Of a stretch of DNA of 64,000 nucleotides, positions 47,401 to 50,400 are shown in pieces. Every line of letters starts with the position of its first letter. The stretch's first letter is position 1. A program made the position numbers and the translations under genes. Under the pieces are notes generated by a model. It ran no database searches, was not told the DNA's origin, and saw only the letters and a program-made list of their open reading frames with translations. Source of the DNA: Lama guanicoe (lineage: Eukaryota); NCBI GenBank assembly GCA_013239625.1, contig MU053810.1, forward strand, positions 5,800,122 through 5,864,121, in the 5' to 3' direction.

Positions 47401-50400
47401 TTTACTAATATAGTAAGCATCAATGGATACAACCTACTTAACTTAAAAAGATTATGTCTACCTAATATTAAGGTATGATTAATTACTTCCATCATTTTTA
47501 ATAATCAAAGACACCATACACATACACACACACTCTGCTAATCAAAACATCTGGTTGGCTTAAGATCTTTGGGGGTAGGGAAACAGCTCAGTGGTAGAGC
47601 ACATGCTTAGCATATACAAGGTCCTGGGTTAAATCCCCAGGACCTTCCTGAGTGAATGAATAAATAAATAAATATCATCAATGTAACAATACTAAAGTGA
47701 AATTATTAAATTTGAAATATGACTGACATGTTAGCAAGTGAAGCTCTATGTAGAGGTCAGAATTCATTTAAGCATTTTGAAACACTGGAAAAATCTTAGT
47801 GTCTAATAGTTAATCTTTCAGAGTCCCTAAGTATATGGATTCCAAACTGAGAACTTTAGTGTATCCCAAAATAAATAGAAACATCTGAGTTAAAGTTTAC
47901 ATTTTAAAAGTCTATTTTTCTCATGCTTGTAAATATCTTTTTTCAAACAATGATGCCAATAATAACATCTGCCTTATTTAATGTCACATCTTTCAATTAC
48001 ATTTGCGAGAAAAACAAAAAGGATCAGGAATGAGAAGACTGTGAGCGTTTCAAATATTTTAGTTTACTTCTTTTCAGAGTTAAATTTGTACTGCAATATT
48101 TACCTGATCTGGGCGCTTGTAAATCCTTCATTCCTCCAGTTTTACTAGGAACAGAATCTTTCACTCCAACTGCACACTGAATGGGTTTTGAAACAAACTG
48201 ATTAATAAATAATATACATTTGATAACGGATTCCAAACTGAGAACTTTAGTGTATCCCAACATAAATAGAAACATCTGAGTTAAAGCTTACATTTGAAAA
48301 GTCTATTTTTCTCATGCTTGTAAATATCTTTTTTCAAACAACGACGCCAATAATAACATCTGCCTTATTTAATGTCACATCTTTCAATTACATTTGCGAG
48401 AAAAACAAAAAGGATCAGGAATGAGAAGACTGTGAGCGTTTCAAATATTTTAGTTTACTTCTTTTCAGAGTTAAATTTGTACTGCAATATTTACCTGATC
48501 TGGGTGCTTGTAAATCCTTCATTCCTCCAGTTTTATCAGGAACAGAATCTTTCACTCCAACTGCATACTGAATGGGTTTTGAAACAAACTGATTAATAAA
48601 TAATATACATTTGATACAATCTGTAGTAATAATTCAAGGGGGGAGGGTCTAGCTCAGTGGTAGAGTGCCTGCTTAGCATGCACAAGGTCCTGGGTTCAAT
48701 TCCCAGTACCCCATTAAAAAAAATTCAAGATAGAAGTATAAAAGTTCTTACCTTCAAGTGGGGATATTTTTCAGTAGAATCTAAAAGCCAAAAGGGACAC
48801 ATAATCAATTACATGTAAATATGAAAGCCAACTATATATTCATGCAGAGTTAGTACTGAGCGCAATCCTCAAGCTTGCTTTGCAAATGAACACGTTAGGT
48901 TTCGGTGTTTTGTTTTTGAGGGGCAGTTAGGACAGCAACAAGACAGCAATATGAATCCATTATAGATACTGAATAAAGAGCAGGAATATAGGTTTAACAA
49001 AACATGCAGTTAAGATTTCAAAAGTATGATTATGTTTCAAATGACTTTATAAAATAGAAAAGTGCACATATACTAATGTGAACATGCTGGTTGATGAGGA
49101 GAAAAGTGAGATTTAATCAGAGGAACAAATCATGGCTCCAAGAAGAGAAATGTGAAAGCTGATGGTAAAATGCAACAGCGTATCTTTAATGCCATTGACA
49201 CCATTAAACTACAAGTATTTATCATGCTCTTCAATTTGTCTTGTAATTTAGGAAGTCCACAGTTGTGACGGCAGTTCATTTGAATGTGTAATTCACTTCT
49301 CATCAGACAAAGTGTGATGAATTGATCAGCCTGGATACACACTTGTAGAATAATAGCTCATAAAAATATTCATTTTTTCCATACCCATGTGGGCTACTGG
49401 TATGCCTACATTTCTTGGGTCCTCTAGTTTAGCCATCATAAGGTTTCTTGATCCACTCATGCAAGAAGGTATATAAGACACATCTAAGAAATAATGTATA
49501 TTAAGTTTTCAATATTGAAATACAATGATCAAAAAGGAAAAAATAAATTTAACTGCCACAGAATTATTAGATATTAAAAGTCTTCTATATTTCAAAATCA
49601 GCATAGTACTTACTGAAAGTAACAATATTAGCATTTAGGGAATTAATTCTATTAATTTCTTTTGTTTCCAAAATTAGTTTGGTGTGCTGTATCATGCTAA
49701 TATTTAGAAGGATTTTTGTGAAACAACTATCTTATCAAAAAATTAGCTATCCTTAAAAAAAAAGCCAATATTTCTATATTCAAATTAATCTCATTTGAAT
49801 AACAAATACCAATGCAACATAAATTTTTGATGCCTGATAGGAGTTGTGGCTGTGACTTACCCCAATTCTAGCCCCCTTCCTGCTTCCAGCATTCTCTGGA
49901 GTGGCAATGATCTAATCTTGCTTCAGTGCAAATATACTGATGCCATCAAAAAGGAGTTCTCTCAAGTTTCCTCCTCAATTCCAAAATCACCTACCTGCGG
50001 CCTTTTTTTCCTCCTTCCTGCCTTTCACTGTATCCTTTCCCCTCCAAAGTTACCTCTAGATCTGTGGTCTTAATTGTTCCCCTTTTCTATTCTTTTGATG
50101 GATGATCTCTACCACTTCTTTTTCCTCTCTGCTTAGCAGCAGCATCTTACATCTCTAATTTGTACTTCAAGCCTTTGCCTCCCTCTGGCTATAAACATGC
50201 TCAGGAAGAAAAGCAAAATCATGCTTTTCCTTGATGCTGTTATGTCTTGAACTCCCCAGTTGCTCTTCTTCCAGATTCCTCTAAACACAAGTCTACCCTC
50301 TGAGCGTGGTCTGAAGACCAGCAACAAGGGCATCACCTGGGAGCTTGTTAGAAATGCAGATCCACTGCTCAGAATGTGCACTTTTCATCAGGTCCCCAGG

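What the first reader, a model, noticed from the sequence alone, without database searches (positions are those of the whole stretch)
47837..48616. Recent tandem duplication of the 73-nt ANKRD26 exon without its 29-nt partner: mutually exclusive exons or a built-in NMD switch
Seen: a 391-bp unit occurs twice (about 9 substitutions). Each copy carries the 73-nt exon with intact attcag acceptor and gtaaat donor, encoding [15 protein letters not shown]... or [15 protein letters not shown].... The exon is phase 0 to 1, so either copy alone keeps the frame. Including both shifts it and hits a stop inside the second copy (GTG TGC AGT TGG AGT GAA AGA TTC TGT TCC TAG). Established (recalled): the 29+73-nt exon pair is the 34-aa unit amplified in ANKRD36/ANKRD30-type paralogues. 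Inference: this is an independent, incipient amplification of the same unstable unit. The gene must splice the copies mutually exclusively, silence one, or lose transcripts to NMD.
Basis: partly seen in the sequence, partly recalled or inferred. Interest (0 to 1): 0.7.

Follow-up and report, generated by a model that had tools for sequence, protein, structure and literature searches.

The report
Duplicated small exon in camelid ANKRD26
In a South American camelid-type genome, one 73-base exon of the ANKRD26 gene sits twice in a row, so a working message most likely keeps only one copy; this is an ordinary kind of exon duplication in a gene family known for copying this same exon.

Summary
A 391-bp head-to-tail duplication (47835-48225 / 48226-48616, 10 differences) carries two intact copies of a 73-nt, phase 0-1 exon of an otherwise intact ANKRD26 on the minus strand. 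Either copy alone keeps the frame; both together give a stop at 48147-48145.

The gene is South American camelid-type. Both copies share a Pro absent from dromedary. The alpaca RefSeq model uses the upstream (Asp) type, dromedary the downstream (Ser) type. Divergence suggests about 5-9 My (wide interval), not a fresh event.

No hard-wired exclusion mechanism was found (318-nt intron, U2 sites, no competing helix), and the acceptor is weak. Best reading: a redundant exon copy, one copy dominant, with double inclusion passively removed by NMD.

Precedent is close: human ANKRD36C 73-nt 0-1 exons are catalogued as mutually exclusive exons, and sea otter ANKRD26 has four in-frame 34-aa units.

No reads were laid, so a two-haplotype assembly artefact stays open (about 17%). 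New member of a known kind; modest interest.

The parts
48226..48616 (-). Upstream (5' in gene sense) copy of the 391-bp unit: 49 nt of upstream intron, the exon, 269 nt of downstream intron
47835..48225 (-). Downstream copy of the 391-bp unit
48495..48567 (-). 73-nt exon copy a (phase 0-1; Tyr at codon 1, Asp at codon 11). Asp type as in the alpaca RefSeq model P0003, which has Cys at codon 1
48104..48176 (-). 73-nt exon copy b (phase 0-1; Cys at codon 1, Ser at codon 11). One amino acid away from dromedary P0006
48145..48147 (-). Premature stop TAG reached when both copies are joined at their canonical sites
   Evidence: translation; position counted from the sequence
48169..48171 (-). Internal AG 7 nt into copy b; the first base after it is 48169. 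Entered from copy a it leaves 66 nt and restores the frame (+22 aa). Predicted only
48752..48780 (-). Single 29-nt partner exon (phase 1-0), not duplicated
48631..48729 (+). SINE-like insertion (family label recalled) with an 8-bp target-site duplication in the 184-nt intron between the 29-nt exon and copy a; without it the intron would be about 93 nt; it starts 14 nt beyond the unit boundary
49385..49483 (-). Preceding 99-nt exon (phase 1-1)
43475..43548 (-). Next exon used in the camelid models, with tandem CAGCAG acceptors (first bases 43548 and 43545)
46154..46411 (-). Homologue of a 258-nt cassette exon of whale and hippo isoforms, here with an in-frame stop; absent from the three camelid proteins. 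Ends approximate

Best explanation
A real, lineage-limited tandem duplication of 391 bp arose in ANKRD26 of the South American camelid line after the split from Old World camels, probably several million years ago. It caught the 73-nt exon but stopped about 135 nt short of its 29-nt partner. Nothing physically forbids joining both copies. The acceptor is weak, so each copy is included incompletely. Messages with one copy are translated; messages with both (or neither) carry a premature stop far upstream of many later junctions and are cleared by NMD, so the mature RNA looks mutually exclusive without a dedicated switch. One copy probably dominates, most likely the upstream Asp-type copy, which keeps the short intron to the 29-nt exon; the other is a redundant, drifting spare. 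Shown: anatomy, frames, intact gene, protein types in alpaca and dromedary. Inferred: cis arrangement, age, inclusion levels, which copy dominates, NMD.
For: Gene intact: 28 other exons translate without stops and differ from alpaca P0003 at 3 of 1444 residues and from dromedary P0006 at 31 of 1444. Both copies carry a Pro where both dromedary proteins and the whale proteins shown have Ser, so the duplication follows that change unless conversion spread it. 10 differences in 391 bp are too many for ordinary alleles: P(>=9 events) is 6e-8 to 4e-6 at the published heterozygosities of 0.0018-0.0030. At 1.4e-9 per site per year the age is 4.6-9.1 My, between the 16.3 Ma and 2-3 Ma splits. An independent alpaca model uses the Asp-type exon once. 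No exclusion device: the intron between copies is 318 nt, branch-point-like motifs lie 26-30 nt before the acceptor, donors are GT-AAAT (U2-type), and best duplexes with three flanking introns were matched or beaten by 7, 7 and 10 of 15 shuffles. Acceptor scores are -2.0 and -3.1, against -3.0 to 11.2 (leave-one-out) for 27 acceptors of the gene. Elephant models enter this exon 9 nt earlier (16 proteins). A frameshift on joint inclusion is found in 377 (60%) of 629 human MXE clusters.
Against: No read evidence for cis or for any junction. By parsimony the 3 exonic events all fall on the upstream copy, the one I expect to dominate, while the downstream exon stays camel-like; this fits the opposite assignment, though 3 of 3 is not significant (p=0.25) and the exon is poorly conserved (46-79% identity outside camelids). 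A RefSeq isoform is a model, and I saw only 1 of 15 members of its cluster. With independent inclusion at most 50% of messages would be productive, a cost that has to be tolerated or avoided by strong bias. The splice scores come from a crude matrix trained on this gene alone.
Confidence: 0.5

Rival explanations
1. Assembly artefact: two divergent haplotypes (for example Lama-derived and Vicugna-derived) were laid end to end by scaffolding or gap filling; each chromosome has one exon.
For: The window is a gapped scaffold (N run at 6045-6683). Llama-alpaca introgression is extensive. At 0.85-1.1% haplotype divergence (my estimate), P(>=9 events) is 0.007-0.03, and 0.13-0.26 for the non-CpG events alone. 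The alpaca model and the dromedary model each show one type only.
Against: The nearest gap is 41 kb away. The variants form two clusters separated by 159 identical bases, which a simple assembly bubble would not keep as one 391-bp arm (inference). The divergence is far above within-species heterozygosity.
Confidence: 0.17
2. Young, true mutually exclusive pair: both copies are used at substantial levels and rarely joined, giving two isoforms that differ at two residues.
For: Both copies keep all splice signals and an open frame after an estimated 5-9 My. The paralogous 73-nt 0-1 exons of human ANKRD36C are listed as MXEs, one as 'annotated MXE'.
Against: No steric, U12 or competing-helix mechanism was found. 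With only 10 changes, survival of the splice sites is expected without selection. Functional duplication-derived pairs are mostly ancient (91.1% shared with fish). The region has no Pfam domain and is poorly conserved.
Confidence: 0.14
3. In-frame double inclusion: copy a is joined to an AG 7 nt inside copy b (first base 48169), adding 22 residues. The protein repeat then grows without the 29-nt exon, and NMD enriches this form among double-inclusion messages.
For: Enumeration shows this product is open into the next exon, and the +7 AG scores about the same as the canonical one (-3.5 vs -3.1). Shifted tandem acceptors are common and NMD suppresses their frame-disrupting forms.
Against: Upstream acceptors are usually preferred, and +/-3 shifts dominate among significantly expressed sites. 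None of the three camelid proteins seen shows the extra 22 residues, and no shorter relative was found.
Confidence: 0.07
4. The downstream (Ser-type, camel-like) copy is the working exon in this animal and the upstream copy is decaying.
For: Copy b differs from dromedary at 1 of 24 residues, copy a at 3 of 24; all exonic changes polarise to copy a.
Against: The alpaca model uses the Asp type; the asymmetry is not significant; copy b is 575 nt from the partner donor against 184 nt for copy a.
Confidence: 0.08
5. Regulated NMD switch: joining of both copies is tuned by tissue or state to set ANKRD26 dosage.
For: The double-inclusion message is a textbook NMD target. ANKRD26 dosage matters in people and mice (search listings).
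Against: No regulatory element was found, no such duplication is seen in other lineages' models, and there are no expression data. A poison outcome follows automatically from any duplicated exon whose length is not a multiple of three.
Confidence: 0.04

Closest known systems
Human ANKRD36C mutually exclusive exon clusters (Hatje et al. 2017, PMC5740500 / 10.1101/133215; passages, one section and supplement rows seen)
   Same: Same gene family. 8 of the 9 ANKRD36C rows in supplementary file 3 are 73-nt frame 0-1 exons and 1 is a 29-nt frame 1-0 exon; the KDS motif sits in the same register by eye in 6 of the 8; joint inclusion shifts the frame.
   Different: ANKRD36C has large arrays of both exons (array size recalled) and RNA-seq-based calls. 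Here there is one extra 73-nt exon in the parent gene, no extra 29-nt exon and no RNA data.
In-frame amplification of the 34-aa unit in the ANKRD26 family: sea otter ANKRD26 (P0131, 4 units), ANKRD30A-like P0158 (7 matches), unnamed P0156, P0157, P0159, P0161 (2 each), P0162 (11), Mesoplodon ANKRD26-like P0121 (2, within a 119-aa block)
   Same: The same segment is copied again and again in separate mammalian lineages, including in ANKRD26 itself.
   Different: Those copies extend the protein in frame and nearly all match both parts of the unit. The camelid copy lacks the 29-nt part and shifts the frame at canonical sites.
Tandem exon duplication-derived substitutions (PMC8373072, passages) and decaying pseudo-exons of mammals (PMC2718932, abstract)
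   Same: A tandem duplicated homologous exon whose fate is constitutive use, alternative use or decay; pseudo-exons occur near 0.4-1.0% of genes.
   Different: The catalogued functional pairs are mostly over 400 My old. This pair is a few My old and neither copy is yet disabled.
RNA-structure-based mutual exclusion born by duplication (Ivanov and Pervouchine 2018, PMC6071210; abstract, introduction and start of methods seen)
   Same: The duplication includes flanking intron, the setting in which competing selectors could arise.
   Different: No docking/selector pairing above shuffle level was found here.

Membership tests
ANKRD26 orthologue, South American camelid type | Sequence identity and exon order match named ANKRD26 (ankyrin, CCDC144C, DUF3496 architecture) | tested here: met
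   Best full-length hit is alpaca ANKRD26 X3; 3 of 1444 residues differ; domains of P0003
Tandem exon duplication | Adjacent homologous exon copies with their own splice sites inside a head-to-tail genomic repeat | tested here: met
Tandem exon duplication | Both copies in cis on one chromosome | tested here: inconclusive
   Only a divergence argument; no reads laid; metagenome pattern scan gave 0 hits
ANKRD30/ANKRD36-type repeat amplification | The amplified unit holds both the 29-nt and the 73-nt exon (102 nt, frame-neutral) | tested here: not met
   The unit ends at 48616; the 29-nt exon at 48752-48780 is single
Mutually exclusive exons | Equal length, same phases, homologous, each open in frame | tested here: met
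Mutually exclusive exons | Transcripts include one or the other copy, with each copy used | not tested
   No RNA reads were laid; one alpaca model shows only the Asp type
Mutually exclusive exons | Steric exclusion (donor to branch point under 50 nt) or U2/U12 incompatibility | tested here: not met
   318-nt intron, branch-point-like motifs about 290 nt from the donor, GT-AAAT donors and AG acceptors
Mutually exclusive exons | Competing RNA structure (docking/selector) | tested here: not met
   Best 40-nt window duplexes no better than shuffles: 7, 7 and 10 of 15 as good or better. Only three flanking stretches were tested
Mutually exclusive exons | Frameshift and premature stop on joint inclusion (NMD-enforced class) | tested here: met
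   in silico only, and one escape route exists
Regulated AS-NMD switch (poison exon) | Regulated inclusion, rise under NMD block, conserved control elements | not testable with these tools
   Needs RNA-seq with and without NMD inhibition across tissues

The most novel reading that the evidence does not exclude
A few-million-year-old exon pair caught before its fate is fixed: both copies are spliced, NMD alone makes them look mutually exclusive, and the double-inclusion messages that survive use an AG 7 nt inside the second copy. A frame-breaking duplication would thereby become an in-frame 22-residue repeat expansion, a second route (without the 29-nt exon) to the repeat growth seen across the ANKRD26 family, readable through diagnostic variants in existing alpaca or llama RNA-seq.
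Probability: 0.12. Interest if true: 0.55.

Novelty: new member of a known kind. Interest (0 to 1): 0.27.

Why it matters
If real, it is a young natural experiment on how a duplicated exon that breaks the frame is tolerated. Most catalogued duplication-derived exon pairs are hundreds of millions of years old, while this one has diagnostic variants that let junction reads be assigned to each copy. It also adds a camelid case to repeated, independent copying of the same ANKRD26 segment (otter, beaked whale, primate-type paralogues). The effect on the protein is small (two residues, or 22 extra, in a poorly conserved linker), and the class of event and even the exon class are already described, so the value is as a test case, not as new biology.

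Tried and rejected
Read-level test: 23 runs were listed, 20 hold part of the stretch, best share of words 0.44, none at half or more. No whole genome is held for this window, and the members of the alpaca and dromedary clusters could not be listed. A scan of metagenome contigs with a 27-nt exon motif gave 0 hits. A search for shorter relatives (truncated or double-inclusion forms) gave 1 candidate, 0 passing. Earlier findings of the scan: none by place, sequence or relatives; 8 word hits on unrelated genomes, not used. SINE-mediated unequal recombination rejected: the SINE-like elements at about 47564-47663 and 48631-48729 lie outside the unit and the breakpoints are not in them. Microhomology is absent in the 391 register; an alternative register gives about 4 bp plus a 1-nt insertion (read), left undecided. 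Excess of exonic changes (4 of 73 vs 5 of 316 sites) is not significant: Fisher p=0.068, or 0.17 counting the double change once, so positive selection is not claimed. Steric, U12 and RNA-structure exclusion were not supported (the inverted repeats are AT-rich and 71-83% complementary). No Pfam family for either exon peptide. P0160 and P0163 are ankyrin and HEAT proteins without the unit and were dropped; P0164 matched only weakly. No structure or complex prediction was run: the segment lies in a linker with no domain. Searches found no paper describing this camelid duplication; subscription journals are largely not covered.

Full report
**Observation.** Tandem Repeats Finder reports 47837-48616, period 391, two copies, 97% matches. 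Alignment gives 9 substitutions in 389 bp. Shifting the register to 47835-48225 / 48226-48616 gives a perfect head-to-tail join with a tenth difference. Four of the ten sit in CpG contexts and look like deamination (read). Each copy holds a 73-nt exon on the minus strand (48567-48495, 48176-48104) with identical splice flanks. The 29-nt exon at 48780-48752 is single. Either copy alone keeps the frame. Both together give a stop at 48147-48145. Skipping both also gives a stop, while skipping both plus the 29-nt exon is in frame.

**The gene.** The largest exon's best full-length hit is alpaca ANKRD26 isoform X3 (P0003), then dromedary (97%). The 28 other exons that I mapped have no stops and differ from alpaca at 3 of 1444 residues and from dromedary at 31 of 1444. 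So this is an intact ANKRD26 of South American camelid type. In the 73-nt exon the alpaca model has Cys...Asp...Pro, both dromedary proteins have Cys...Ser...Ser, and the window has Tyr...Asp...Pro upstream and Cys...Ser...Pro downstream. The shared Pro places the duplication after the camel split unless gene conversion spread it (inference). The Asp type is confirmed in an independent assembly; the Tyr was not seen elsewhere. I saw one of 15 members of the alpaca cluster, so other alpaca isoforms may use the other copy.

**Real or artefact.** No reads were laid, so this rests on statistics. Published heterozygosity is 0.0018-0.0030 (PMC7331169, passages), at which nine or more events in 391 bp have P of 6e-8 to 4e-6. 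For haplotypes from different genera (0.85-1.1%, my estimate) P is 0.007-0.03, and 0.13-0.26 if only non-CpG events are counted. Such introgression is common. The window is a gapped scaffold, but its only gap is 41 kb away. I put the artefact at about 17%.

**Age.** With 7e-9 per generation and 5-year generations the copies split 9.1 My ago on all sites (95% range 4.4-16.8) or 4.6-5.5 My on non-CpG sites (range 1.5-11.9). That falls between the 16.3 Ma tribe split (PMC12337305, passages) and the 2-3 Ma Lama-Vicugna split. 'Recent' is right only on an evolutionary scale.

[quoted passage not shown] Here the intron between the copies is 318 nt, with branch-point-like motifs 26-30 nt before the acceptor, and the sites are U2-type. 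Best duplexes between the unit and three flanking intron stretches were matched or beaten by 7, 7 and 10 of 15 shuffles, so the competing-structure model (PMC6071210, part 1 of 5 read) has no support. Only the frameshift class applies. The acceptor is weak in a crude matrix built from this gene: -2.0 and -3.1 against -3.0 to 11.2 for 27 other acceptors, leave-one-out. Elephant models enter the same exon 9 nt earlier (16 proteins). The upstream copy keeps a 184-nt intron to its partner exon (about 93 nt before a SINE-like insertion), the downstream copy is 575 nt away, and the alpaca model uses the upstream type. Hence the best reading: one copy dominant, the other a spare, and joint inclusion cleared passively by NMD. 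Against it, all three exonic events polarise to the upstream copy (p=0.25), and independent inclusion would cap productive messages at 50%.

Enumerating alternative sites gave 292 open double-inclusion products, most with poor sites. The best one that uses the canonical ends of copy a joins it to an AG 7 nt inside copy b (first base 48169). This leaves 66 nt, restores the frame and adds 22 residues; that AG scores -3.5 against -3.1 for the canonical one. Tandem acceptors are common and NMD suppresses their frame-breaking forms, but upstream sites are usually preferred and 3-nt shifts dominate (PMC8055015, passages). This is a prediction only. Copy b also has a pyrimidine-rich internal AG at +32 that is non-productive and is absent from copy a because of the double change; whether this matters is unknown.

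**Family context.** A profile of the 34-aa unit found one copy in 149 of 155 fetched proteins (mostly redundant cetacean, equid and elephant isoforms), none in 4, two in a Mesoplodon ANKRD26-like protein (inside a 119-aa block) and four in tandem at exact 34-aa spacing in sea otter ANKRD26. A search with the otter repeats returned 9 proteins. Six have clear multiple units (2, 2, 7, 2, 2 and 11), one matched weakly and two are unrelated. The 1397-aa protein with 7 matches falls among ANKRD26 and ANKRD30A clusters in the Atlas; that it is human ANKRD30A is my recall. Hatje's supplementary file 3 lists nine ANKRD36C exons, eight of 73 nt in frame 0-1 and one of 29 nt in frame 1-0, one labelled 'annotated MXE'. 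The family is also known for gene-level duplication (PMC4141111, passages). The camelid event, however, omits the 29-nt exon and is not a member of the in-frame amplification class.

**Novelty.** Six literature searches found no description of this camelid duplication; coverage of subscription journals is poor, and bioRxiv supplements could not be seen. The kind of event is well known: tandem exon duplications that end constitutive, alternative (mostly ancient, 91.1% shared with fish; PMC8373072, passages) or decayed (0.4-1.0% of genes; PMC2718932, abstract). Even 73-nt 0-1 exons of this family are already catalogued as mutually exclusive. The exon has no Pfam match and is 46-79% identical outside camelids, so the isoform difference is probably slight.

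**Verdict.** Observation confirmed; interpretation partly supported; new member of a known kind; interest 0.27. Its value is as a young, SNV-tagged test case, decided by one long-read look and one junction count.

Noticed in passing
window 46154-46411 (- strand): Homologue of a 258-nt cassette exon used in whale and hippo ANKRD26 isoforms (its motif is in 64 of 155 fetched proteins) carries an in-frame stop here and is absent from the three camelid proteins: a lost or poison exon directly downstream of the duplication.
   Followed up: partly
window about 38800-40700 (+ strand): Frameshifted, intronless cyclin-like sequence with a GC-rich 5' part, antisense inside an ANKRD26 intron. Atlas features give Cyclin_N clusters at 0.90, Pfam found nothing. 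It looks like a cyclin I processed pseudogene (name recalled).
   Followed up: partly
window 36400-37450: GC-rich, purine/pyrimidine-skewed stretch with long open frames on both strands and no Pfam match; origin not worked out.
   Followed up: partly
window 43545-43560 (- strand): The next exon has tandem CAGCAG acceptors. The further upstream acceptor implied by whale isoforms (4 extra residues) has no AG at the matching place here.
   Followed up: partly
window 31178-31335: Two tandem copies of a 79-bp unit, 92% alike, in an A-rich intronic stretch.
   Followed up: no
P0131 534-669; P0121 26-178; P0001/P0002: Independent internal amplifications in other mammals: four 34-aa units in sea otter ANKRD26, a 119-aa multi-exon duplication in a Mesoplodon ANKRD26-like protein, and four CCDC144C stretches in a bat ANKRD62.
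   Followed up: partly
window 6045-6683: Assembly gap of 639 N inside an ANKRD26 intron.
   Followed up: no
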